From Thermoanaerobaculia bacterium (GTDB lineage Bacteria; Acidobacteriota; Thermoanaerobaculia; Multivoradales; JAHEKO01), in contig CAWAET010000017.1 in assembly GCA_963781065.1 (NCBI GenBank), forward strand, positions 90,805 through 154,804: DNA of 64,000 nucleotides, written 5' to 3'. Positions 35,151 to 48,646 of the stretch are shown here, piece after piece (the first letter of the stretch is position 1; the number at the start of each line of letters is the position of its first letter). Under the pieces are notes generated by a model. The model was given only the letters and a program-made list of their open reading frames with translations, was not told where the DNA came from and made no database searches. Made by a program: the position numbers and the translations under genes.

Positions 35151-37454
35151 ATGACCACGAAGGTAACTGCAATCCAAAGGAAAGTGCTCGACGCCCCGGT
35201 GGTCGAGTGCCCCGTGCTCTCCGGAACGGCGCACGATGCCTTGCTGGTGCTGACAGAGACGACACTGCAGGCGTTTGACACGAGCCTCCGTCTGTGGCCG
35301 AAGTGGACGCACAAATTCCCCGCCGGTGCCTGCCCCAAGGGCCTGACGGTGTCGAACGACGTGGCTTATTGCGTGGCCGGGAACACGCTCTACGCCCTGC
35401 ACGTCGACGACGGGACGAGACCGAAGGAATGGAAAGAAGGATTCTTCAAGAGCACCTCCGGCAACGACTTCTTGCCCCCGGTCGCGCATGAAGGCCAGGA
35501 CCACATCTATGTCATCGACGAAGGGGGCACCGTCTACAAGGTCTCACGCGACTGGGGAACTGACCGCGGCTCAGCCGGCTGGCAGGTGACTCCGCAAGCC
35601 GGCCTGGTGAACTGGCCGCCGGCCACCGACGGCACCTGGCTCTACTATCAAGTCGATCACTACCTGCTGGCCATCGACTTGGAAAGTGGTGCCGAGCAAT
35701 GGCGCTTGAATCTGAAGGAATACGATGACGCATCGGACGGGTGGACAGCCGCGTCTCCGCTGATCGCGTGGCAAAGGAGAAGCGAAGGATACATGAGTGT
35801 GATCCTGCGCGACGACCGCTCCTTCTGCTGGATACTCGTGACGCGGAGTGACCTGAGCACCAAGAAGCTACCAAGCTGCTTGACGACTTTGACAGACGGC
35901 GAGTCGAGGTCTGCAAAGGTCCTCCATCTACGGCAGGAGGCTGGCATGGCAATATGCCATCCCCCAGCAGGACAGCCTGTCATCGACCCTAGTCCGTGGG
36001 ACTTCTCGACAGCCCTATTCTCATGGATTCCTCTCGATGAACCGCAAAAAGTCAGTCCGATCGGGTGCCCGTGGTACACCGAACCGCGGTCATGGCGCCG
36101 CTTTGCCGGCAAGAGCCTTGGAACCGCGCTGTACGGCGCGGCAAACCCTCCCGCGAAGGCACCGCCGACCTTCCTGCTGGCCGTCGACGATACCGTCCAA
36201 CTCCGGCGCACCGATCACCTCGCTACCGTGATCGGCGAGTACACGATCGACCTGCAGCGCTCCCATGGCCCGGTTTGCAGTGGCGATCGCAAGGTCTACA
36301 TGACCGGGACCGCGCTCGTAGATGGAAAAGAAGCCACTTTTGTGTCGGAGTATGTCGAATTCTCTCCCGACCCCAAGGCGCCTGGCCTCACGACCTGGAG
36401 GAAGATGGACCTCGGCACGCCCTCGGTTCCCAAATGGTCGGAGTGTGCGTTCGCTCACGCCAAGTTGCCCAACACAGGCAACAACGAGAACTGGACCCGC
36501 GTGTTGATAGTAACCACGTGGGATGAGTGGGGAGGAAGCGTCGAGGTATGGCGACTAGATCAGCTTGAAGTGTCGCAACCCGTACCGGGCGGCTTCAGTG
36601 GGCCGATATCCGCAGGTGTGGGTGTCTTCGAGAGAGAGGTTGACGGGAAGACCTTTCTACTGGCCCCCGATTCGACATACAACACGGTAACCGTAGCAGA
36701 GCTGCCATCCCGGTCGAGCACGACATTGCAGGTGACGAACCCGGCCGCCATCTGCATCGACGACACTCCTGAAGGAACTGCCTACATCGTCCAAGACTCC
36801 GCCACGGTCAAGCTCGAGCTTTCCGGCGATCCCGCCAGTTGGAAGAACCGGCACACGATCCCGACGGTAAAGGAATCGATCGCGATTGCCGTCCTGCCGT
36901 GCCTATCTTGCGGGGATCATGCGCCCCACATCATCAGCCGCACGGGTTCCATGACCGCGGACTTCCCCGAGTGGAAAACGTTTTCTGTCGATCTGGGCAT
37001 GAGCCACCCCTTCCGGATCGCCGGTACCGGTTGCCCACCTTGGGCCGCCTCTCTCTATATCGCCAACCGCCCGCCGATGGCGCCCAATGCCGACTACAGC
37101 GTCCACGTGTTTCAGGTCTCAATGAACGAGAAGGGGGACTCACCCAGCTACCAGAGCGTCAAGACGATTCCGCTCATAGGCAGCGACGGCCAGCCGCGCG
37201 CACCCTATGACCTCGCCCTGGTGCCTGGCGGCAAGTGGCTGCTGGTCACCGGACAGCTCGTCCAGGGCCTGGACTATTCGGAGGGCGCTACCGGCGAGAT
37301 CTTCGTGATCGACACCCTGAGCTACCAGATCGCGGCACAACTTGCGCCCGGAATAGCAGGGGATCCACAGGGCATCGCCGTGGCCCCCGAACGGGACAAG
37401 GTGGCATGGTTGACCAGCGAGCTGAACGTCGTCGTGGCCGACCTCACCTGGTAA
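35151..37454 (+). CDS. Large beta-propeller (PQQ/BamB-like repeat) protein, 767 aa, no signal peptide
   Basis: ATG after GAGGA. Recurrent TLYALH/IYVIDEGGTVYKV/YLLAIDLESGAEQW blade-like repeats. GC about 60%, lower than the core. 38 bp upstream of the giant gene. Confidence 0.55.
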   Translation: MTTKVTAIQRKVLDAPVVECPVLSGTAHDALLVLTETTLQAFDTSLRLWPKWTHKFPAGACPKGLTVSNDVAYCVAGNTLYALHVDDGTRPKEWKEGFFKSTSGNDFLPPVAHEGQDHIYVIDEGGTVYKVSRDWGTDRGSAGWQVTPQAGLVNWPPATDGTWLYYQVDHYLLAIDLESGAEQWRLNLKEYDDASDGWTAASPLIAWQRRSEGYMSVILRDDRSFCWILVTRSDLSTKKLPSCLTTLTDGESRSAKVLHLRQEAGMAICHPPAGQPVIDPSPWDFSTALFSWIPLDEPQKVSPIGCPWYTEPRSWRRFAGKSLGTALYGAANPPAKAPPTFLLAVDDTVQLRRTDHLATVIGEYTIDLQRSHGPVCSGDRKVYMTGTALVDGKEATFVSEYVEFSPDPKAPGLTTWRKMDLGTPSVPKWSECAFAHAKLPNTGNNENWTRVLIVTTWDEWGGSVEVWRLDQLEVSQPVPGGFSGPISAGVGVFEREVDGKTFLLAPDSTYNTVTVAELPSRSSTTLQVTNPAAICIDDTPEGTAYIVQDSATVKLELSGDPASWKNRHTIPTVKESIAIAVLPCLSCGDHAPHIISRTGSMTADFPEWKTFSVDLGMSHPFRIAGTGCPPWAASLYIANRPPMAPNADYSVHVFQVSMNEKGDSPSYQSVKTIPLIGSDGQPRAPYDLALVPGGKWLLVTGQLVQGLDYSEGATGEIFVIDTLSYQIAAQLAPGIAGDPQGIAVAPERDKVAWLTSELNVVVADLTW

Positions 37455-37492
37455 CCAGTTCCGCAGAACTCCGAAGCCATAGAAAGGAACCC

Positions 37493-40400
37493 ATGAGCAA
37501 AGCGAGTACCGGCCCTTGGAAGAAGTCCTTCATCACCGAGTCCAGGAAACTCAGCACCGCGCCGCACATAGCGGGCGACGTGCTCGTCGTATCTGGCGCC
37601 AACCACCTCTACGGAGTGAGCATCTACGACTCCGCGAACGTCTGGCAGCATTCGGTCACGGCGCCCGTTACCGACCTCTCCAGCGCCGGCGGTACGGTCT
37701 TCTTCCTGGGAACTCCCGCTGATTGGGGTGGGGATGACAACCCGTTCGTGGACAACATCCTTGTCGCGATCGACGCCGGCACGGGAACGGTCAAGCAGGA
37801 GTGGCTGACGGCCACCAAGGACATTTCCGACCTGCAAAGCCCGCGCGTGGAAGGCGGTGTGGTTCTGATCAGCACCTCGGACGGCGGGCTCTATGGATTC
37901 GACAGCCAGACTGCCGACCAGCTCTGGATGACGAGAATCGGGGAGGGCGCGACGCCCCAGCACCCGAGCGTTGGGCACGGCGCGGTCTTCGCCTTCGCCA
38001 ACGACAAGCTCTATGCCGTCAACGTCCGCAGCGGCCAGCAGCGCTTCTGCTTCGACGGCGACGGCGATTCGTTGGCCGCCCGATCCGCCGCCCTGGTCGG
38101 AGACGGCCTGGTCATCGTCAGCGGCCAGGCTCACCTGCACGCCCTGGACTGGAACACGGGAGAGGCCGTTTGGAAGATCGATGTGCCGGCCGGCCAGACG
38201 TGGAACACGCCAGTTGTCTCCTGGGACGGCGGCTGCCTGTTCGTGACCAGCACCCAGGGTCATGTGTACGCTTACCCGCTCGCGGCCGACGAACGCGATG
38301 CCCTGCGAAAGGCGACCGGCGAAGCCCACTTCTGGAACAGCACGGTCGACGACCTGGCGAGATCTTCAAACCTCTCGATGACCGACCCGGCCGCGCAGGC
38401 GCCGATCCTCGAGGAGGACGTCACCCTGGTGGACGTGGCCACCGGCCGTCTGAGGAAGGGCAGCAGGGTGTTCGTGCCGGCAAGCAGCGCCGCCATGGGA
38501 GCAGTGTTCGTCCTCGATCTGACGATCGACGGCAGCCGGGCCACAGACGAGAAGTACGCCGTGGAGCTCGGCTCGCACGTCGAGGTGCAGGACCCGCCGC
38601 GGGACAAAGCTCCGGCTCCGGCTGTCGCCAACGGCACGGTGTTCACCTCCTCCCGCAGCGGCGAGGTGACCGCGACCTCCTTCGTCGAGACCACCGCGCC
38701 GTTCTTCAGCGGAAAACCGAAGGTGACCGTCCCCGAGTCCGATGACTACCTGCTAGGCGCCGGCCCCTTCAGCGTCGAGGCCTGGGTGCGCACGACCGCC
38801 GGCGGCACCGTCCCGTTCCGCTCCCCGACAACCGCCGGCAAGACCGGTTTCCGCCTCGAGGTGGTCAACGACGCGTTTTTCTCGACAACCCAGACGCCGA
38901 GCGCTACGGGGACGGGCGCGTGGTCTTCTCGCTGGGCTCGGCAGAGACGTCCGCCGCGACCTCACCCGTCGCCTCGATCCTGCTCTTCGCCCAGTCGTCG
39001 GCGACTCCCATCGCCGACGGCCGCTGCCCCTGGCCTCATCCGCAAAGGCGACGAAGTCGAGATCTTCGTCGACGGTACGAGCCTGCCGGTCGACACCATG
39101 CTCCACCTGTCCCTGGTGCCCGAGGAGCACCGGAACCAGCTGCCGCCCAATCTGAGTGTTCTTTCCCCCTTCGATCTTGCCGCGCGACCTGATCGTCCCC
39201 GAGGTGGACTCGCCCGAGGCCCTGATCATCGGCGGCGACAGCCCCTCCGATCCCGTCTTCGAAGACGCCGATGTCAAGGGCTTTACCGGGCTCATCGCGG
39301 ACGTGCGCCTGTGGAGCACGCCTCTCGGTGCCCGCCAGATTCAAGACCGCGCGAGCAAGGAGCTGAAGGGGAACGAGCCGGGCCTGCTCGGCGACTGGCC
39401 CCTCAACCAGGCGGAGCCCAAGGACTTCAAAGACCTCTGCCACCACGACCGCAAGGTCGACTCGGCCACAGGAGTCAGCCTCAAGCCGACCAACCTGAGC
39501 CTGGACAACAGCCTCTTCCCCTACCTGCTCGACAGCGTCACGGCGGAGTGGCCCAACAAGGAACGCTGGATCGCGCGCGGCGAGGACGCGCCCCGTGGTC
39601 GCCCGGCCGCCTGCGGCGAGGTGCTGGCCTTCACCACCGACCAGTGGCTCTACGCCATCGATGCCGTTCACGGCACACGCAGATGGGCGCGCGAGCTCGC
39701 GTCGCCGAGCGAGCCGGCGTCCGACCGAAAGACCTTCTACGTCACGTCGGGCACGAAGGTCGTCGCCGTCGACGCCGAGACTGGCGGCAGCCCGTGGCAG
39801 GCCATCGACCTGAGTGAGCAGAAGCCAGCCTCCGACGTACCCGCCGCCAGCGGGCCACTGCTAGCGGTTTCCAACCGGTGCGTCGTGGTCTCGGTCGATC
39901 GCAAGACGGTCTACTGGCTGGACAAAGGAACCGGCGAGGTCCTGGGCACCTACTCCGCGACCAGCGCCATCCGCGGCGAGCTGGCGGCTCGCCACGACAG
40001 CGTGTACCTCGCGGCCGACAAGCTCTACCGCTTCGCCGACGCGTCCCCAAGCGTCGTGGCGGCCTCGGCCCCCGTCGAGCTTCAGGCCGGCTCCGAGCCC
40101 CGGATGTGCGTCGAGCGCGGCCGGCTCTTCCTCTGGAGCGGCGCCTGGATCGAGTCGCTCGATGCGGGCACTCTGAAGGTGCCGCAGGTCGAGACGGCGA
40201 GCGGTTCCAAGTCCCAGGCCTGGGCACCGCCCAGCGTCCCCGCCGGCGAAGCGGTGGTGGGCCTCGCCGCTTCGGCGGCGGGCAACCGTCTGGTCGCAAC
40301 GACAGACCAAGGTCGTGTGCTGTTCCTGGATTACGGCTCGGGCGCCCAGGTGAGCACCGCCACCCTGCCCGGACTGACGATCCCATACGCCTTTGCGCCG

Positions 40401-43400
40401 GTGATCGAGGGCCAGACGGCCTACGTCACAGGCAAGGGCACCGGAGGCCAGATCCCCGGCGGCGTCTATGTCTACGATCTGGCACACGGGATGCTGCGCG
40501 CCCGTGCGGAGGTTGACTCACCCCCGGTGAGCGCGGCGTACGCCGGCTGCGGAGCGGCATACTTCGGCTGCGACGACGGTGGCCACAGCGACGCCGAAGC
40601 CATGCACTCGGTGGTCTTCGGTCAAAACCTGGCGCTTTATCGGAAAGGCAGCGAAGAGGCGCTCACCGTGCCTGGAGTAGCAGGCAAGTTCGCCGGGGCG
40701 TCCGCCTCGCCGGCGGCCAACGCCTTCGCCACCGGCACCTTCAGCCTCGAGCTGTGGATGAACGCCGCGCCGGCCGGCGACTACGAGCTGCTTTCGCTCC
40801 CGCCCTGGACTCACAGCGGCCACGACTACGGCGGCTTCCGGTTGGCCGTGAGCGGTGGAGGGCTCGTTGCCGACTTCCTCGCCGCCGGGTCGGCGCGGCG
40901 GTTCACCAGCATCGACACCGGGTTGACGGATCGGGCGTTGGCACCACGTGGCGGCGGCATTCCGAACCGGCGCCGACGGTCAACAACTTTGCCACCTCTT
41001 CGTCGACGGAGCGAAGCTCGCCAACACCAGCTACGAGGACTTGCAAGGCGTACCCGAGCCGGTGCAAGAGCCGGAGATCACCGTCGGAGGCAGTGGTGAC
41101 TCGACCTTCCGCGGAATGCTGGACGAAGTCCGCGTATGGAATACGTGGCTTCACGACGCTGAAGTGGCTGGGCGCTGCAACGTCAGGCTGTGCGGCGACG
41201 AGCCGGATCTGCTCGCCTGCTGGCGTTTCGACGATGCCGCGGTACTCGACGCCTCTCCCAATCAGCTCGGCCATGACCCGGTCGGCCCCCTGAGCCGCTG
41301 GCTCACCGACCTGAGCTTCGAGCAGCCGCGCTACCCGTTCCTGACCGCTTCGACCAAGGCCGGCGAGCTGGTCACGGCGCCCCTTTCCGAAGGCCACGGG
41401 CGAACCATCACCTCGGCCACCTTCACCACCACCATCACCGCGCGCCGGGCCGACGGTACGCCGAGGCCGGAGACAGAGCTCACAATCGACATTGCCAAGC
41501 CGGCCTCGGGAGAGATCCAGGTCGCGAGTGGAGCGACCAGTGCCGGCGGCCACGATGGCTGCACGACCTATAGCGCCAAGGCGGGAACCGACGGGCGGGC
41601 CGTTCTGCGCTGGAAGATCGAGGGAGTCGATTCGCACAAGCCGGTGGCCTCGCCGGTCCTCGAGGTCAACGCCGACTTCATGTACCCCAACGAACGCTTC
41701 CTGGTCAGCTCGGTCCGCGAGAGCCAGAGGCACGTTACGCTGCCGCCGCCGACGCTGACCGTCAAGTCCGCCATGCTCCAGGACTACGACTGGGCGCCCG
41801 GGGACACGCTCGGCACCAAGGGTGCAAACGGCGAGGTCGTTCTCCAGCCGGGCGTCGACATCACCGCGATCCGCACCACGATCACGGCGCTCTCGGGCGA
41901 CGGCAGCCCGCTGCCCGGCGAAGACCTGGAGATCTGGGCCGACGACCACGTCACCGTCGAGTGCCAGGGGACCGCCTATCCGGTCAATAAGAGCAACTCG
42001 GTCAAGCTCAAGACCGGGCACGACGGCACGGTCGTGCTGGTGATCCCCGATAAATCGACTCCCGATGGCAACCTCCTCGACGTACCCACGCTCCAGGTCC
42101 GGGCGGGGTTCATGCCGAGGAGCGCGCGCGTCGTCTTTGGCCCGGCCGAGCAGGGCCACAAGACCCTCTCCCAGGTCACTGGGGATCAGGTGGCGGGCAG
42201 GGCGAAACTCACCGCCGACCGGCCCAACCGGACTCCCCTGGTGCCGCAGGAGATCGCTAAACAAACCGACTCGAGCGAATCGGTGGCGAAGGCCTTGAAC
42301 CAGATGGCTCGGCTGACTGCCCAGCACGAGCCGCAAGGGACGACTCATGCCGGCGGCAGCGGAACGCCGCTGTGGTCGGGCGCTCAGGGCGACAACCCCG
42401 ACCTGGCACCGCCGGACGCCGTGGCGTCGATCCTCAAGGCGGCCCATCAGCGCTACCGGGCGCCGATCACGCCCGATTACATGTCGGCCAGGCACTTTGT
42501 CGTGTCCCTGGATGGCATGACCATGACCTATACGGAGTTCCACAGCGCAGAGGACCTCGACGCTCATCTGAAGACCAAGCTGGGCAAGACCTACACCGAG
42601 CTGACTCGGGACATCGCCTACGGCGGCCCCGACGACCCCGCCGGCGGCTGGTTCAAGAGCCTCAAACATCACATATCGAGTGCTTGGCACTCATTCAAGC
42701 ACGGCGTCACCCAAGCCTGGAACAAGGCCAAACACTTCGTGGTCAAGACCTGGGACGAAGCCAAGAAAGACCTCAAGCAGGTGGCGCATTTCGTGGAGGT
42801 GACGGTCGCCGACGACCTCAATGCGATCGGCAAGTGGGTCATCAAGACGGTCAAGGACGTCGTCACCCATGTGGTGGCCTTCCTCAAGAAGATCGGGACG
42901 CTGATCAAGGACGTCATCAATTTCCTGCGGGCGCTGTTCGATTGGCCGGTGACCCTGGAGATTCACGATGTGCTCAGGGAAACGATCAATCAGAACCTCC
43001 AAGGACTGAAGGCAGATCTGCAGAAGGTCCTGCCCCAGGAGGCAAAGCGCGCCTTTGCGGACGCCAAGAAGGCTCTCGACAAGGCACTCGGCGCAACGGG
43101 CAGCGGTGGTGGCGGCGCCCTGAGGGGTTACGGGCACCAGGCTTCGGGAACCTCGGCAAAGGTGCTCTCCCACGCGGGCAGCAACAAGTCGCACTACCTC
43201 CACCACAAGATCCGCGAGCACGGGCACGGCCACAGGTCGGTGCCTCGCGACCCCTTTCGTCAGGCGCCGACCGGAGACCCGCCTTTCGGAGAGATCGGCG
43301 CGCTCACCAGCCAGGGTGACCTAAACCTCAACCAAGCCTTCCAGCAGCTGGTCGGCGACCTCCAAGCCCTTCTGGATCAGCCGGGAGGCCTCACCGCGCT

Positions 43401-44466
43401 GACGCCTCACGAGCTTCTCTCGTTGGTCGAGGACTTGCTGACTCTCCTGCTCGATCTCGCCGAAGATGTCACTCTCGCCATCATGTACATTTGCGAGCTG
43501 CTCGTCGCTGGAATCAAGGACCTGCTCAATCAGGAGATCCACATCCCGTTCATCTCGGATCTCTATAAACTGATCACCGGCGGCGATTCGCTAACGATTC
43601 TCGACGTGCTTTGCCTCCTGGTGGCGATCCCGGTGCACCTCGTAGGTGCCGTGATCGGCTTGCCGAAGTTCGACAAGGGAGAGTTCAAGAGCGCTGCCGG
43701 GAGCAACGCTCTGTTCGGTAACAGCCAGGATGCGGACTTGGCGGCTCGCCAGAGCTTCGGAGCAAGTCAAACAGAGAGCGTCTCGGCCGCCACCAAGTGG
43801 TGGGACGTCAGCCACCTGATCTTCGTGTTCTTCAACGGCCTTCTATCGGGAGCACAGGACATCCTGCAGGGGAACATCAACGCCGAAGACCCGGAGGAAA
43901 CCGGCAATCAGGCCAAGGAGGAGGTGAACGTGGGAACCGGCATGTTCCTGCTCGGCCTGGCCTCTCACATCACCGCCATCTTGGCGCAAGTCAGCTTCTG
44001 GATCGTCTGCGGCCAGATCGGCAGAGGCAGTAGAATCCGGGTCGTCCGGGTTCTCGAGTTCACGCCCTCCGTCCTCCACGCGGGGGCCATGGTCTTCGGC
44101 GTGCGAAGCCAACTCGCGGGCGCCGCTCAGACCTACGGCAAGGTCTCCGTAAAGGGCCTGGGCAAGGTGCCGAAAGAGCCGCTAATGAGCCTGGTCGGTC
44201 TGGCGGCGGTCCTGGCGTCGATGGTTACCACCCTGGGGCACTGGGACCAAGAGGACGGCCAGGACCGAGCGGAGGGTTTGATCACCCTGGTTTCGGGCCT
44301 CAATCTGGCCTTCACTTTTCTCATCTGGGGGCCGGTAGCGCTGGCCTCGGAGGTTGACGGCGTTCCGACCTCTCCCCTCGCCAAAGGTGCGATGGATTTC
44401 GCCGTCTCCAGCGTCACCGCGCCCGTGGTTCACCTGATGGCAGGCTACGGCAAGGAAGTCCTGTAG
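37493..44466 (+). CDS. Giant (about 2320 aa) multidomain protein: beta-propeller, LamG/ConA-like, second beta-propeller, second LamG, bacterial Ig-like domains, and a C-terminal helical domain with 5 hydrophobic helices; reading frame broken at least 4 times
   Basis: Three overlapping ORFs (37235-39817, 39156-41099, 40948-44466) plus a short third-frame piece (38920-39192) splice into one continuous sensible protein. The frame changes are at T5 (38876-38880), C4 (about 39026-39030), C5 (39166-39170) and near 40920-40935. LamG hallmarks: FSVEAWVR, EIFVDG, FTGLIADVRLWS, GRWHHVAAAF, LFVDGAKL, GMLDEVRVWN. The C-terminus 43590-44355 has five 20-30-aa hydrophobic segments. Confidence 0.6.
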
Positions 44467-44502: not shown

Positions 44503-45189
44503 TCATCGGTTGCGGAGTGCGCAGAGGAAGCCATAGGCCCGGCGCGGGTCGAGGATGTAGTCGAAGGGCACGCGCGCGTGGCCGCTGTCACCCCAGGCCG
44601 CGCCCATTGAGTTGCGGGCCACCAAGGCCGCCGAGCGTTCGTCGTAGCCCACGGCGGTCATCGCGTGGCTGCGAACCGGAAAAACATCGACGGGAAGAGG
44701 CAGCAGCCCACTCCCGCGGATCCCTCCGGCCTCGAAGACGTGGACGTTGGAGCCTGTGAGGCGCAGGCAAAACAGGAAGGGGCGCTCGTCTTCGAGGCTC
44801 GCACGTAGGATCTCCTCCCGCTGCTTCAAGGGCTCGAGGCCGAGGGCTTCGTCAGGGCCGGTCAGCGCGTAGGCGCGCGCCGGTGGTTGTTGCCGAAAGC
44901 GATCGGGCTCGTAGGGCCACAGCCGCTCGGCGCATAGACCATATCGCTCTAACGCCCGTACCGCCTCGGACGGGCGGATCGGCATATTGTGATTCTGGTT
45001 GCCGCCCAGCTTGCGGGCGTTGTAGTAGAGGAAGAGCGCCGAGGGGTCGAAGGCCTCACCCGCGCCGTCACCAAGCGATCGGGCCCCCTCCCACCAGACC
45101 AGATCGGTGACGGCCAGCGCCAGACAGGACTCGAGCCCCTTCTGGTCGCGGATGCAACGAAAACGGGAACGCAGGTCGACGGCCGACAC
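44503..45189 (-). CDS. Papain-like cysteine peptidase (C1 family), minimal mature domain, no pro-region and no signal peptide
   Basis: IRDQKGLESCLALAVTDLV (Gln/Cys of Q..C box), SHAMTAVGYD (His), ARNSMGAAWGDSG (Asn). Convergent with the giant gene, 37 bp apart. Confidence 0.65.
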   Translation of the reverse strand: MSAVDLRSRFRCIRDQKGLESCLALAVTDLVWWEGARSLGDGAGEAFDPSALFLYYNARKLGGNQNHNMPIRPSEAVRALERYGLCAERLWPYEPDRFRQQPPARAYALTGPDEALGLEPLKQREEILRASLEDERPFLFCLRLTGSNVHVFEAGGIRGSGLLPLPVDVFPVRSHAMTAVGYDERSAALVARNSMGAAWGDSGHARVPFDYILDPRRAYGFLCALRNR

Positions 45190-45191
45190 GC

Positions 45192-45758
45192 TCAGCCTCC
45201 GACGCCCGGCCGGGTTGCCGGCCCCTTTCCGGGCCCCGAATACCTCCAGCGGTTTTTCATCAGGAGCAGCAGCACGATCCGCTCCCGCGGACCAGGATTG
45301 ACCACCTCGTGGGGCAGCGTATAGTCGAAAACCTGCACCTCTCCTGCGACATAGTCTCGCCGTGCTCCGTCGACGATGATTTGAGCGCCGGGGTCGGCCT
45401 GGAGGCAGAGCGACGCCGTGACGTGGGGCTGATGGTGCACATGGCGGCGAATCCGCGCCCCCGGCGCGAGGGCCGAGAAGGAACAGGCCAGAATGCCGGA
45501 AGCTCGTTCCATCGTGGCGGCCGTCGCCGGAGCGAGCGTTCTGTTCCTCAGCAGCAGAGCCTGTGGCACCACCCCCCGGTCCTCTTCCTCGACCCGTAGG
45601 GGCAGCGCCCTCCAGGTACCGGCAGCGGCGCGGTCGTCATTGACCGTCAGCATACGGTCGCTCAGGGCCAGCGCTTCGTCTCGCATGGCCGCCCAGCGCT
45701 CGATGAACGGAGCCAGCTGGGGATATGCCTCAGGAGACTGGTACACCGCGTAAGCCAC
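45192..45758 (-). CDS. Aspartyl/asparaginyl beta-hydroxylase-like 2OG/Fe(II) oxygenase (cupin), soluble
   Basis: ...ILACSFSALAPGARIRRHVHHQP...VQVFDYTLPHEVVNPGPRERIVLLL resembles the AspH/LpxO catalytic domain. GTG start is uncertain. 2-nt gap to the C1 peptidase gene. Confidence 0.6.
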   Translation of the reverse strand: MAYAVYQSPEAYPQLAPFIERWAAMRDEALALSDRMLTVNDDRAAAGTWRALPLRVEEEDRGVVPQALLLRNRTLAPATAATMERASGILACSFSALAPGARIRRHVHHQPHVTASLCLQADPGAQIIVDGARRDYVAGEVQVFDYTLPHEVVNPGPRERIVLLLLMKNRWRYSGPGKGPATRPGVGG

Positions 45759-45984: not shown

Positions 45985-48646
45985 CTAGCGGGTCCCGGCT
46001 CTGCGCTTGTGGATTCCCTTTACCCAGCGTTCTAGCTCAGCAACATCTGCGGTGAGCTCCTCCGGCTCGGGCACAGGTACATTCTCCGCTGCTGCTTGGT
46101 CGTGGCCGGGAAGCCACCGGGAGGCCTTGGACATTGCGGCCTCCAGCGTCCTGCAGTCCTTCTCGTTGATATCTGAGAGCAGGCCGACTCGGAGCGTTTG
46201 AATGGAAGGGCGGTAGCGTTGGACGACGCCAGCCAATAGGACTTCCTCGAGCGCACGCTCCCACGCCTCGCGGAGTAAGCCGTAGATGTAGATGGCTTCC
46301 TTCTCGTAGACGTCTCGAGAACTCTTCCGGAAGAGCTTCTCTACCGCCTGGCATTTCTGCTTGAGCACGCCAATTCGGTCCTTGACGCGCATGGCGACCC
46401 ACGGGAGTTCCGGTGACGCAACGCCAGCCCCAAGCGCGTCGCTCCTCACGTACTGGTACACGCACTCGCAACCAGCCTCCTCCGCTCCGCCAGCTAAGGC
46501 CAGCACGAAGACGATGTCGTGGGTGAACACTACGACTTGGCGGTGCTGCGCCTCCTGGGCTAGGCGACGTGCCACATTCTCGCGCCACACATGGTCAAGC
46601 GACGATACCGGATCGTCGAAGAGAATGGCCGACTCATCGGAGGCGGTAGCCAGCTCCGCGAAGAACGAGGCAATCGCAAGAGCACGAGCCTCCCCTTCAC
46701 TCACTACGCGATACAGCGTGGCACCGGGAGCACGCTTCAGGACCAGCCGATGGTAGAGGGCACCACGTTGACCCCCAGCAGCTTCGAGCACTACTTCGAG
46801 ATGGGTGAAGCCGATGCGTTCGAGCTCCGTCCGGAAGGCACCTGCCAGCTGGTCCGTGACAGCCCGCTTTGTAACATCCGTACTCTTGCGCGTAATGTCC
46901 CGCGTGTTCGTCTCGCGAAGACAGAGGCTGTACGCGGCTAGCTGCTTCTTTCGTTCGATCTCGGCAATGACCGCGTCCGCCCCCTTCCCGAGACTCTCCC
47001 TGGCGGAGAGCTCGCGAATCTCGCCATGGAGCTGTTCGGCGGCCGCCTGCGGTTTCTGGCCGGCCAGTTCGGAGCTACGGGCCTGCAGCGCAGCACTTTC
47101 TTCGTGGATTAGCGCTGCAAGCCCGGCCTGCAATGGCGGCAGACCAGCCGGCATCTCCGAGCCCTTGTCGAGAGTCACAACAACCTCTTGCTGGCGTTTC
47201 TCGCTGCGGCAATGAGCCCCGCGGCCTTGCTAGCCAGGGCGGTGTTCTCTAGGCGGAGTTCGGCCAGCTGGTTCTCTGTGGCTTCGTGGCGGTCGGACAA
47301 GTGCTTGAGCTCGAGGACTGAGCGCTGCCACGACACCCTCTCCTGGTCCACACTCTGTTGCAGCGTTGACCCTACGTAGTCCTCGAAGTTGCTCGAGCCG
47401 CCTCACGGCGGCGGGAGCCAGGGCCTGCTGGCAGAGCACACAGTGGGCCCCTTCGTGGATATGTGGAAACGGTTTGCCACGGTACGCACTCCCGGTCGAG
47501 AAGGCCCGTGCCGCCTCCCAGAGCTTTCGCCACAGGGGGCCACCAGACCCTGGAAGCAGGTCAGCCGGAAGAACCTGGTGGCGGTGTTCAGTCGCTGCCG
47601 ACTCTGCTTCTGAGAATGCCGTCCTCCGGTCGAACAGCGAATCCAGTCCCTCGTCACCCACGACGGAGACCACTGAGTCCACGTGCCTTGCGAGTGCCTC
47701 GACACGCTCTCCTCTCAGCCGCAGGGTCGCTGCACAGTCTCTTCGGGTCCTGTGCTCTTAGGTCGTCGAGCCGTTTGCGTAACTCCGCGAGCGCACGCTG
47801 TTCTTCCTCTGCGAGCGTGCCAAGGGAACGTACCCGTTCTGGCTGCGTGAGTGAACTCAGCGAGGCAAGTAGCTTCGCCGCCTCAGTACCCTCCGGAAGC
47901 TCAGGAAGGGCGTTCCGCTGAGCCTCAAGGACTCGCTGTTCCCGTTCGAGGATCCGCTTGACCGCCTGGCAAGCGTTGGAGAGTCCGTCAAAGAGGTCCA
48001 AGCCGAACGGCCGGAACGCTACGTCGGTCTTCTCCCGCAAGTACACGCTGGCGCAGTGGGTGTCGAAGACACTCACGTGGCCGAGCGCATTGTCAGGCTC
48101 ATCCTGGTCGGCCCACGCGAACTCCTTCTCTTCGTCTCCCGATCTGAACGAGATCGTCGCCGCCGGCCGGGCCGGCGCTTGGCTCTGGAATACATTGCCG
48201 AGAATGCTCTCAGCTCCTCGCGCGCGGCAGGCCCGCTTCAGTATGCGGGTATACCCGGACTTTCCGGCAGCGTTCGGTCCGTAGACAATCGTAAGGTCGG
48301 GGCCGAATTCGATCTGTTGCCCTGCCGCGAGTGCGTTTACGCCGGCGAGGTGGGTTAGCGAAGATAGGCTCGTTGGCGAAGATCCCGGTGTCCTTTGTGG
48401 GAGGTGACGCTTCTCTAGAGGATGGGCCACGGCGACTTCTGGGTCGGCGAGGCCATGCTCCGCTTTGCAGAGACCGGCCAACTCCTCGGCATCTTCTTGG
48501 CCGGGCTCTCCCTGGGTGACTAGACGCCGGAGGGCATCTCGTTGCCAGGCTGGAAGAGACGCTGACCAAGACAGGATCTCAGCGAGTACGTCCACGGTAG
48601 ACGGCCTCGTCTCTCCGGGTCGCGTTGGTTCCTTTGGCTTCCGCAT
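45985..48646 (-). pseudogene. Rad50/SbcC-like ABC ATPase with CxxC zinc hook (RloC/PrrC-like candidate anticodon nuclease or related defence ATPase); disrupted by a frameshift (about 47655-47682) and an in-frame TAG (47230-47232)
   Basis: N-terminal piece: Walker A IVYGPNAAGKSGYTRIL. Middle piece: coiled-coil with HCVLCQQ. C-terminal piece: signature-like VSEGEARALAIA, Walker B AILFDDPVSSLD, H-loop VVVFTHD, then a roughly 190-aa C-terminal domain containing WLPGHD. Confidence 0.55.

What the first reader, a model, noticed from the sequence alone, without database searches (positions are those of the whole stretch)
42400..44466. C-terminal about 650 aa of the giant protein: amphipathic helical region followed by five hydrophobic helices, a candidate membrane-insertion or pore-forming module
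After the Ig-like region the sequence becomes strongly helical with Lys/Glu periodicity (WHSFKHGVTQAWNKAKHFVVKTWDEAKKDLKQVAHFVEV...). It then contains five hydrophobic stretches: ILDVLCLLVAIPVHLVGAVIGLP, SHLIFVFFNGLLSGAQ, GTGMFLLGLASHITAILAQVSFWIVCGQIG, LMSLVGLAAVLASMVTTLGHW and ITLVSGLNLAFTFLIWGPVALASEV. These resemble buried hydrophobic hairpins of helical pore-forming domains (colicin-type, Cry domain I-like) or a multi-pass anchor. Together with LamG receptor-binding-type domains, this is a toxin-like logic.
Basis: inference. Interest (0 to 1): 0.7.

Follow-up and report, generated by a model that had tools for sequence, protein, structure and literature searches.

The report
Membrane tail of broken giant gene
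The last ~600 codons of a 2,300-residue lectin-like protein gene encode an undescribed but widespread module that looks like a six-to-seven-helix membrane-embedded bundle, not a colicin- or Cry-type pore-forming domain, and in this genome the gene is cut by four frameshifts.

Summary
There are seven, not five. The "giant protein" is not one ORF here. It needs four frame changes (about 38876, 39034, 39156 and 40932) to give a 2,321-aa product that aligns end to end with intact 2,250-2,400-aa relatives. This copy is therefore probably a pseudogene.

The C-terminal region has four parts:
- a charged amphipathic helical core;
- a 104-aa disordered linker;
- an acidic amphipathic helix plus an invariant IPFIS-type motif;
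- seven helices that are apolar on all faces.

The core plus the first hydrophobic helix defines a family of at least 1,091 sequence clusters with no Pfam, NCBIfam or PDB relative. It sits behind variable lectin-like N-termini (PQQ propeller, LamG, Tectonin).

Structure searches found no colicin, Cry or ClyA similarity. The best matches are six-helix membrane channels (SatP, UreI) and generic bundles.

The most likely reading (about 0.5) is a polytopic membrane-embedded domain that holds the giant protein in the membrane. Several oddities keep a post-translational insertion or toxin-like reading alive (about 0.2): no Sec signals, Tat signals in about 10% of relatives, acidic flanks, marginal hydrophobicity, and a conserved cysteine peptidase neighbour.

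The parts
37493..44466 (+). Giant gene (PQQ propeller - LamG - PQQ propeller - LamG - beta-sandwich region - C-terminal module), broken by four frameshifts. The stitched product is 2,321 aa.
   Evidence: GC3 frame plot. Pfam domains. tblastn with P0003 across three frames. The stitched product aligns in a single HSP to P0003, P0004 and P0005. ATG at 37493 is preceded by GAAAGGAA.
38876..38878 (+). Frameshift 1 (frame 2 to frame 1), next to a T5 run. Consistent with a 1-nt deletion.
39033..39035 (+). Frameshift 2 (frame 1 to frame 2). A deletion that removes the conserved WHH(L/V)A motif of LamG domain 1.
   Evidence: Alignment to P0003, P0004 and P0005; sequence.
39154..39159 (+). Frameshift 3 (frame 2 to frame 0). 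A 1-nt insertion or a 2-nt deletion.
40931..40933 (+). Frameshift 4 (frame 0 to frame 1) inside LamG domain 2: GAT-C-GGG, where the relative L001 has GAC-GGG.
40948..44466 (+). Longest intact ORF (1172 aa). The publicly annotated product P0001 starts at GTG 41062, which has no recognisable ribosome-binding site.
42652..43089 (+). Soluble part of the conserved core. It holds three ~17-aa repeats (VVKTW / FVEVTV / WVIKTV) followed by charged amphipathic helices. The FLRALFDW motif has L, F and W invariant or nearly so.
   Evidence: AF2. Alignments A1 and A4. Polar periodicity.
43090..43401 (+). Gly/His/Ser-rich linker predicted as disordered. It contains a conserved SHxKSxKSxY...K...HG motif at 43162-43224.
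   Evidence: pLDDT <50; consensus of A1; coordinates.
43405..43527 (+). 41-residue acidic amphipathic helix (8 D/E, 1 K).
43540..43581 (+). Family signature HIPFISDLYKLITG. I-P is invariant or nearly so in 34 sequences.
43597..43662 (+). H1, the most hydrophobic helix and the only one conserved across the whole family. It contains a conserved proline.
   Evidence: KD 2.61; summed Hessa score 0.4.
43786..43863 (+). H2, apolar helix.
43936..44019 (+). H3, apolar helix with no charged residue.
44038..44115 (+). H4, a less hydrophobic helix carrying R/E/R. Together with its flanks it forms the only K/R-rich stretch of the tail. Possibly a cytoplasmic or in-plane helix.
44173..44238 (+). H5, apolar helix with invariant Gly600.
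44257..44331 (+). H6, apolar helix that begins with invariant Glu625.
44368..44463 (+). H7 with nearly invariant Asp666 and His678, followed by the C-terminal G[YFH]G motif (AGYGKEVL).
35151..37454 (+). Upstream partner gene (~768 aa, PQQ-like propeller, no signal peptide). It ends 38 nt before the giant gene.
   Evidence: Pfam. Homologous partners sit next to P0003, P0004 and P0005. Intergenic sequence.
44503..45189 (-). Conserved neighbour: a papain-like (C1-type) cysteine peptidase of 228 aa with intact Q/C/H/N motifs and no signal peptide.
   Evidence: 42-49% identical to neighbours of P0003, P0004, P0005 and P0008. A Peptidase_C1 gene also sits upstream of P0011. Peptidase_C1 hits. No Pfam hit for the window copy at 1e-3.
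45192..45758 (-). Conserved neighbour: an Asp/Asn beta-hydroxylase-type cupin of 188 aa.
   Evidence: Pfam PF05118, E=1.2e-18. The same gene follows the peptidase in L002, L003 and L014.

Best explanation
The region 42400-44466 encodes the C-terminal module of a giant lectin-like protein family. The most likely reading is that its last ~290 residues (H1-H7) form a polytopic, six-to-seven-helix domain embedded in the producer's own cytoplasmic membrane.

Upstream of that domain lie a charged helical core, a flexible linker and an acidic amphipathic helix. Together they would act as a juxtamembrane stalk joining the bundle to the ~1,950-residue array of propellers, LamG and beta-sandwich domains.

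The charge distribution favours a six-span arrangement with the N-terminal array and the C-terminus outside and the K/R-rich H4 region inside. Invariant polar and glycine residues in H5-H7 (G600, E625, D666, H678, G-Y-G) suggest the bundle does more than anchor. It may act as a channel-like or signal-coupling unit.

In this genome the gene carries four frameshifts upstream of the module. The full protein cannot be made, so the module is probably a relic.

Shown: the anatomy, its conservation, the frameshifts, the family and the lack of toxin homology. Inferred: membrane location, topology and function.
For: 1. Seven helices of 20-28 residues have only 6-21% polar columns and no helical periodicity across 11 relatives. 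The upstream core helices have 28-38% polar columns with clear periodicity. Each of these helices has 0-4 charged residues and a low hydrophobic moment, 0.09-0.29.
3. Loop charges are consistent in all 10 full-length aligned relatives. L2 and L5 are strongly acidic. L3-H4-L4 is the only K/R-rich stretch. Summed K+R is 6-12 in the proposed inside loops against 1-5 outside.
4. By sequence, the distal helices are conserved only in the close subfamily (12 of 150), while more distant members keep hydrophobic tails of about 200-950 aa. This is the pattern expected of a membrane domain.
5. Eleven of 106 full-length relatives start with a twin-arginine signal. P0016 passes the NCBIfam TAT cut-off. So the N-terminal domains are extracytoplasmic in at least that subfamily, which matches the N-out inference.
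6. One relative (P0010) has an FGE-sulfatase domain after the tail. That is compatible with an even number of spans.
7. Pseudogene status rests. A second broken gene lies next door.
Against: - The helices are only marginally hydrophobic on the Hessa scale: summed values of about 0.4-3 in the window protein, and none below 2.5 in P0004.
- The most conserved helix, H1, has net acidic flanks on both sides in 98 relatives, so it shows no positive-inside signal. Tails are net acidic overall, with K+R 5.3% against D+E 8.7%.
- In the Tat-type member P0024, read by eye, the few K/R residues do not follow the proposed topology.
- No family member examined has a Sec signal, and 92 of 106 have no signal at all. 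It is therefore unexplained how a ~1,950-aa N-terminal array would get outside.
- In the deeper model, H1 has high confidence together with the soluble core helices. That could mean it packs against them.
Confidence: 0.5

Rival explanations
1. Soluble-to-membrane insertion module, that is, a toxin or effector. The protein is made and folded in the cytoplasm as a soluble giant. It is either exported folded by Tat or released. Its lectin-like propellers and LamG domains bind a target. The acid-flanked hydrophobic helices then insert post-translationally into a target membrane to form a pore or deliver something. The companion cysteine peptidase might first cut the disordered linker.
For: - There are no Sec signals in 106 full-length relatives. 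Eleven have Tat signals, which export folded proteins, and the rest have none.
- Hydrophobicity is marginal.
- H1 has acidic flanks, L2 and L5 are strongly acidic hairpin tips, and a 41-residue acidic amphipathic helix precedes H1. From memory, this resembles the acid-triggered hairpins of diphtheria-toxin and CNF translocation domains. That comparison was not tested here.
- The N-termini are interchangeable carbohydrate-binding-type domains: Tectonin, LamG, PQQ propellers.
- H1 is modelled with high confidence alongside the core helices.
- A cytoplasmic papain-like peptidase is a conserved neighbour.
- The genes sit in variable regions with TA, defence, IS or RHS genes in several genomes.
Against: - There is no sequence or fold similarity to any known pore-forming or translocation domain.
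- Seven all-apolar helices (about 170 residues) are too many to hide inside the ~200-residue amphipathic core of a monomer.
- The distal hydrophobic part, which would be the business end, is the least conserved part of the family.
- No immunity-like small gene or secretion system is conserved next to the gene.
Confidence: 0.2
2. Same polytopic domain but in the opposite orientation. The tail anchors a giant cytoplasmic scaffold (N-terminus inside) to the inner face of the membrane. This would apply to the 87% of relatives without any export signal, including this one.
For: - The window protein and its close relatives have no signal peptide of any kind. They start directly with the first propeller blade.
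- The conserved companion enzymes (peptidase, hydroxylase) and the partner protein also lack signal peptides, so they would meet the giant protein in the cytoplasm.
- PQQ-type propellers also occur in AfsK-type Ser/Thr kinases (NCBIfam AfsK hit). From memory that propeller is cytoplasmic. This was not tested here.
Against: - With the N-terminus inside, the strongly acidic loops L2 and L5 would be cytoplasmic and the only K/R-rich region would be outside. That is the reverse of the positive-inside rule in all 10 aligned relatives.
- Tat-bearing relatives with the same core must have the N-terminal domains outside.
- LamG, Tectonin and Ig-like arrays are typically extracytoplasmic (general knowledge).
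Confidence: 0.15
3. The hydrophobic helices are not membrane-embedded at all. They form the buried core of a large soluble oligomer or of a complex with the upstream partner protein.
For: - Hydrophobicity is marginal and there is no positive-inside signal.
- A partner gene is always adjacent.
Against: - Helices that are apolar on all faces for 20-28 residues, seven in a row and conserved as such across relatives, are not seen in soluble proteins without lipid (general knowledge).
- Distant relatives have segments with clearly negative or near-zero summed Hessa scores, such as -1.9 and -1.0.
Confidence: 0.05

Closest known systems
SatP (succinate-acetate permease, PDB 5ys3) and UreI (urea channel, PDB 3ux4): six-helix channel protomers
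Colicin-type pore-forming domain and Cry toxin domain I
   Same: All are helical, contain hydrophobic helices, and sit in proteins that also carry receptor-binding-type domains.
Hydrophobic translocation regions of large toxins (TcdA/TcdB pore-forming domain PF12920; diphtheria-toxin and CNF T-domains)
   Same: A long hydrophobic region lies inside a very large multidomain protein. Hairpin tips and flanks are acidic. A cysteine protease is involved, although here it is a separate gene.
   Different: No Pfam hit even at E<=1 in 11 members. No catalytic effector domain is present. The resemblance is recalled from memory and only the sequence part was tested.
Tat-exported proteins with C-terminal membrane anchors (e.g. 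hydrogenase small subunits)
   Same: About 10% of family members combine a twin-arginine signal with a C-terminal hydrophobic region.
   Different: As I recall them, the known examples have a single C-tail helix. Here there are five to seven hydrophobic segments. The window protein and its close relatives have no Tat motif.
Public annotation of relatives: 'LamG-like jellyroll fold domain-containing protein', 'LamG domain-containing protein', 'outer membrane protein assembly factor BamB', 'hypothetical protein'
   Same: These are the same protein family.
   Different: The names describe only the N-terminal domains. The C-terminal module studied here has no name or model in Pfam, NCBIfam, PADLOC or the PDB.

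Membership tests
Colicin-type pore-forming domain | Sequence match to the family profile | tested here: not met
   No Pfam hit at E<=0.01 or at E<=1 in 11 family members. No PDB sequence hit.
Colicin-type pore-forming domain | About 200-aa ten-helix bundle with a single buried hydrophobic hairpin | tested here: not met
Cry delta-endotoxin domain I | Seven-helix bundle with a central hydrophobic helix, followed by beta-prism and beta-sandwich domains; profile match (Endotoxin_N) | tested here: not met
   No Pfam hit. No structural hit. The domain order is reversed, with the helical part at the extreme C-terminus.
TcdA/TcdB-type translocation domain | Profile match to PF12920 | tested here: not met
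Polytopic (multi-pass) cytoplasmic-membrane domain | Several helices of about 20 residues that are apolar on all faces | tested here: met
   H1-H7 have 6-21% polar columns and no periodicity across 11 relatives. KD peaks are 1.7-2.6.
Polytopic (multi-pass) cytoplasmic-membrane domain | Hydrophobicity sufficient for translocon insertion | tested here: inconclusive
   Summed Hessa scale is 0.4-3 for the best windows. P0004 has none below 2.5, while distant members go down to -1.9. This was a crude position-independent sum. No dedicated TM predictor was available.
Polytopic (multi-pass) cytoplasmic-membrane domain | Positive-inside charge bias giving a consistent topology | tested here: inconclusive
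   A consistent bias exists in 10 close relatives: inside loops have K+R 6-12, outside loops 1-5. There is no bias around H1 in 98 relatives, the tails are net acidic, and the bias is not evident in P0024.
Polytopic (multi-pass) cytoplasmic-membrane domain | Experimental membrane localisation | not testable with these tools
   Needs fractionation and reporter fusions.
SatP / UreI six-helix channels | Family profile match and channel-lining residues | tested here: not met
Tat substrate | N-terminal twin-arginine motif followed by an h-region | tested here: not met
   The window protein starts MSKASTGPWKK with no RR motif. The feature is met in 11 of 106 relatives, and P0016 is above the TIGR01409 cut-off.
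Intact gene (versus pseudogene) | One uninterrupted reading frame matching full-length orthologues | tested here: not met
   Four frame changes are needed. Sequencing error cannot be excluded without reads.
The new family itself (core + H1) | FL[RK]ALFDW-type helix, IPFIS-x-LY-x-ITG motif, proline-containing hydrophobic helix | tested here: met
   All three are present at 42850-43089, 43540-43581 and 43597-43662. The core profile hits 150 of 150 best relatives.

The most novel reading that the evidence does not exclude
The core, acidic helix and hydrophobic tail form a new kind of self-inserting membrane module. Giant lectin-like proteins would be made without a Sec signal and folded in the cytoplasm. 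Some would be exported folded by Tat and others released by an unknown route. After processing by their dedicated papain-like peptidase, and possibly hydroxylation by the adjacent cupin, they would drive their acid-flanked hydrophobic helices into a membrane. That would be either a new alpha-helical pore-forming toxin or effector family, or a signal-peptide-independent way of displaying a ~2,000-residue ectodomain.
Probability: 0.2. Interest if true: 0.8.

Novelty: new variant of a known kind. Interest (0 to 1): 0.45.

Why it matters
The module defines a large family: at least 1,091 clusters at 50% identity, found in Actinobacteria, Burkholderiales and Acidobacteria. No domain model, structure or functional study covers it, and annotation names these proteins only by their N-terminal lectin-like domains.

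Three things would each be new if confirmed:
- how a 2,000-residue ectodomain without a Sec signal is coupled to a multi-helix membrane domain;
- why about 10% of members use Tat;
- what the conserved cysteine peptidase and Asp/Asn hydroxylase neighbours do.

For this genome the practical result is more modest. The locus is most likely a decaying gene in a lower-GC accessory region.

Tried and rejected
1. The search for homologous proteins, run with the single sequence and with an 11-sequence profile, returned only the window's own product and one metagenomic fragment. The word-index step evidently missed the family. The exhaustive HMMER search found 1,091 relatives.
2. Foldseek against afdb50 was unavailable.
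3. Foldseek against the PDB gave nothing with E<0.2.
5. Pfam at E<=1, NCBIfam, PADLOC and PDB sequence searches gave nothing for the module.
6. I considered a conserved or programmed frameshift at 40932, because the metagenomic relative L001 also changes frame near its 5' end. I rejected this. The sites are 24 nt apart and of opposite sign, L001's lies in the first 50 nt of a contig, and the intact relatives have no shift there.
7. I considered an umbrella-toxin-like locus because of the nearby trypsin-like protease. No other component was seen, and that protease is not conserved next to relatives.
8. BLASTP of the upstream partner against the partners in Trinickia and Rhodococcus was negative. 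Partners are related only within subgroups.
9. Two literature searches found no paper on this architecture.
10. The plasmid DNA search found no near match. The protein search found two annotated relatives, without informative names for the C-terminus.
11. The organism of the window could not be identified with the scans available.
Full report
**What is in the sequence**

The window is high-GC DNA, 0.62-0.75, with a lower-GC stretch from about 30 kb onward. On the + strand, third-position GC shows one continuous coding signal from about 37.5 to 44.5 kb, but it jumps between reading frames.

The mechanical ORF list gives 37235-39817, 39156-41099 and 40948-44466 in three different frames. A public annotation holds only a 1,134-aa product starting at GTG 41062 (P0001). 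That start has no recognisable ribosome-binding site.

tblastn with an intact relative (P0003, 2,295 aa) covers the locus in three frames. Finer alignments show four frame changes:
- about 38876: frame 2 to 1, beside a T5 run;
- about 39034: frame 1 to 2, a deletion that removes the conserved WHH motif of the first LamG domain;
- about 39156: frame 2 to 0;
- about 40932: frame 0 to 1, GAT-C-GGG where a relative has GAC-GGG.

Stitching the five pieces gives 2,321 aa without a stop. This product aligns end to end in one HSP with P0003 (44.6%), P0004 (38.9%) and P0005 (39.4%).

Several observations point to real decay rather than assembly noise, although only the reads can settle it:
- other ORFs of 3 kb and longer in the window are intact;
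- three of the four lesions lie within 280 nt;
- one lesion deletes a conserved motif;
- the neighbouring PDC-S06-type ATPase is also split into two ORFs with its middle missing.

**Check of the observation**

The five quoted hydrophobic stretches are at 43597-43665, 43810-43857, 43933-44022, 44182-44244 and 44281-44355. They give Kyte-Doolittle 19-mer peaks up to 2.61.

AF2 (11-sequence alignment A1; mean pLDDT 59.8, pTM 0.54) gives this layout of the 688-aa query:
- a small alpha/beta unit at 32-61;
- a helix at 88-109;
- three short strands at 112-148;
- long helices at 151-229;
- a disordered Gly/His/Ser-rich linker at 231-334;
- a 41-residue acidic helix at 336-376;
- a short helix carrying HIPFISDLYKLITG;
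- seven hydrophobic helices: H1 400-421, H2 463-488, H3 513-540, H4 547-572, H5 592-613, H6 620-644 and H7 657-680.

It is beta in this model and a low-confidence helix in a second model (pLDDT 40-70). Its secondary structure is therefore open.

**The family**

An exhaustive HMMER search of 1.84 billion cluster representatives found 1,091 proteins with E<=1e-3, 200 with E<=1e-10 and 11 with E<=1e-30.

Seven full-length relatives of 2,254-2,402 aa (P0003-P0008, P0011) match the C-terminal region, and four of them (P0003-P0006) match it over its full length. P0003 has the same PQQ-LamG-PQQ-LamG architecture by my own Pfam scan, and the precomputed Pfam tables list the same domains for P0004, P0005, P0008 and P0011.

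A genome scan found the giant architecture in Trinickia fusca (2,306 aa) and Rhodococcus sp. IEGM 1379 (2,217 aa). It also found relatives of the core in other Burkholderiales and in a Solibacteraceae MAG.

A profile of the core (query 85-440) hits all 150 best relatives. A profile of the distal tail (440-688) hits only 12. The conserved unit is therefore the core, the acidic helix, the IPFIS motif and H1. Beyond it the sequence diverges while hydrophobic segments persist.

The N-termini are interchangeable lectin-like domains: PQQ propellers, LamG and Tectonin.

No Pfam (even at E<=1), NCBIfam, PADLOC or PDB sequence match covers the module. Public names refer only to the N-terminal domains.

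**Is it a colicin- or Cry-like pore-forming bundle?**

- then CcsBA, GPCRs, rhodopsins and talin rods.

Foldseek finds nothing below E=0.2. Its weak hits are all integral membrane proteins, with SatP again at TM-score 0.44.

A second model of the core with 34 sequences (pLDDT 69.6; confident helices 66-147 and 213-335, including H1) matches only generic helical hairpins. No pore-forming toxin appears anywhere.

Column-wise analysis is the most telling result:
- The core helices and the acidic helix have 28-38% polar columns with helical periodicity. This is the signature of soluble amphipathic helices.
- H1-H7 have 6-21% polar columns without periodicity across 11 relatives.

Colicin and Cry domains, as I recall them, shield one hydrophobic hairpin with amphipathic helices. 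Seven all-apolar helices cannot be shielded that way.

**Topology and the oddities**

In all ten full-length aligned relatives the loop charges follow one pattern:
- L2 and L5 are strongly acidic.
- The stretch L3-H4-L4 is the only K/R-rich region.
- Summed K+R is 6-12 in L1 + L3-H4-L4 + L6, against 1-5 in L2 + L5 + tail.

This favours six spans (H1, H2, H3, H5, H6, H7) with H4 on the cytoplasmic side and both protein ends outside.

That agrees with the Tat signals found in 11 of 106 full-length relatives; P0016 passes the TIGR01409 cut-off. It also agrees with an FGE-sulfatase domain fused after the tail in P0010.

The signal is weak, however, and several points do not fit:
- H1 has net acidic flanks on both sides in 98 relatives.
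- The tails are net acidic, with K+R 5.3% against D+E 8.7%.
- The summed Hessa values are marginal, 0.4-3, with none below 2.5 in P0004.
- The Tat-type P0024 does not follow the rule.
- No relative has a Sec signal. The three flagged by my heuristic are propeller strands, and 92 of 106 have no signal at all.

How a ~1,950-residue N-terminal array would cross the membrane in those proteins is unexplained. These features keep two rivals alive: post-translational, toxin-like insertion, and an N-in orientation.

**Genomic context**

The giant gene follows a ~768-aa propeller-like partner gene after 38 nt and has a good ribosome-binding site. Related partners flank P0003, P0004 and P0005. Unrelated-looking partners of 506-706 aa precede the giants in Trinickia, Rhodococcus and L019, and a 1,150-aa family member in L017.

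Downstream on the opposite strand lie a 228-aa papain-like peptidase (44503-45189) and an Asp/Asn hydroxylase-type cupin (45192-45758). The peptidase has intact Q/C/H/N motifs.
- The same peptidase-cupin pair follows P0003, P0004 and P0005.
- A homologous peptidase follows P0008.
- A Peptidase_C1 gene stands in front of the P0011 operon.

None of these proteins has a signal peptide. Their role is not known. Cleavage of the conserved SHxKSxKS linker is an untested idea.

**Verdict**

The best-supported mechanism is a polytopic, possibly channel-like, membrane-embedded domain that tethers a giant lectin-like protein (confidence about 0.5). In this genome it is most likely a relic of a frameshifted gene.

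The family itself is uncharacterised and has unusual export and charge features that deserve experimental attention.

Noticed in passing
window 45985-47178 (-) and 47654-48646 (-): The two AAA-type ORFs are the C-terminal part (profile positions 484-857) and the N-terminal part (4-289) of one ~858-aa PDC-S06 candidate anti-phage ATPase. The middle is missing or out of frame, so this is a second broken gene next to the giant pseudogene.
   Followed up: partly
window 44503-45189 (-) and 45192-45758 (-); L002, L003, L014, L015, L019: A signal-less papain-like cysteine peptidase is a conserved neighbour of giant-type family members in six loci. In four of them, including the window, an Asp/Asn beta-hydroxylase-type cupin sits beside it. 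They may process or modify the giant protein.
   Followed up: partly
window 35151-37454 (+): An upstream ~768-aa propeller-like partner gene is probably co-transcribed with the giant gene (38-nt gap). Homologous partners occur beside P0003, P0004 and P0005. Other family members have a 506-706-aa upstream gene with no detectable similarity to it.
   Followed up: partly
relatives P0016, P0019, P0024, P0031, P0041, P0042, P0060, P0082, P0084, P0089, P0149: About 10% of full-length family members (~1,150-1,230 aa) start with a clear twin-arginine signal. None has a Sec signal. A Tat-exported N-terminal domain combined with a multi-helix hydrophobic C-terminus is, to my knowledge, unprecedented.
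   Followed up: partly
window 43162-43224: A conserved motif, SHxKSxKSxY...K...HG, lies inside the otherwise variable linker predicted as disordered. K263 is nearly invariant. It may be a processing or modification site.
   Followed up: no
window 44440-44463: The protein ends with a conserved G-[YFH]-G motif (AGYGKEVL), preceded by nearly invariant Asp666 and His678 in H7 and invariant Glu625 at the start of H6. The likeness to the GYG signature of K+ channels is probably coincidental, since the motif is at the extreme C-terminus and not in a P-loop.
   Followed up: no
window 42733-42855: There are three tandem ~17-residue repeats (KHFVVKTWDE... / AHFVEVTVAD... / KWVIKTVKD...). The two AF2 models disagree on their secondary structure.
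   Followed up: no
window ~30000-52000: This is a lower-GC stretch (0.62-0.69, against 0.67-0.75 upstream). It carries MscS, CorA and CNNM/CorC transporter genes, a ParE toxin, the giant pseudogene, the broken PDC-S06, a 663-aa trypsin-like protease and a Cds6_C protein. It looks like an accessory region. A CorA gene also lies near the P0005 locus.
   Followed up: no
L001 1-60: The only close relative returned by the word-indexed search is a 2.2-kb metagenomic contig. It also changes frame about 8 codons before the GRWHH motif, consistent with a 1-nt deletion in a C run. This is probably a contig-end error and not a shared frameshift site.
   Followed up: yes
P0010 residues 854-1026; L015 14682-16217: An FGE-sulfatase domain is fused after the hydrophobic tail in one relative. 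A separate FGE-sulfatase gene lies near another relative, P0008.
   Followed up: no
L018 (Variovorax plasmid), L020, L021 (Undibacterium plasmid): Family members often sit near mobile or conflict genes: an RHS core protein and an IS30 transposase; a PemK/MazE pair; an IS6 transposase and AVAST Avs1c.
   Followed up: no
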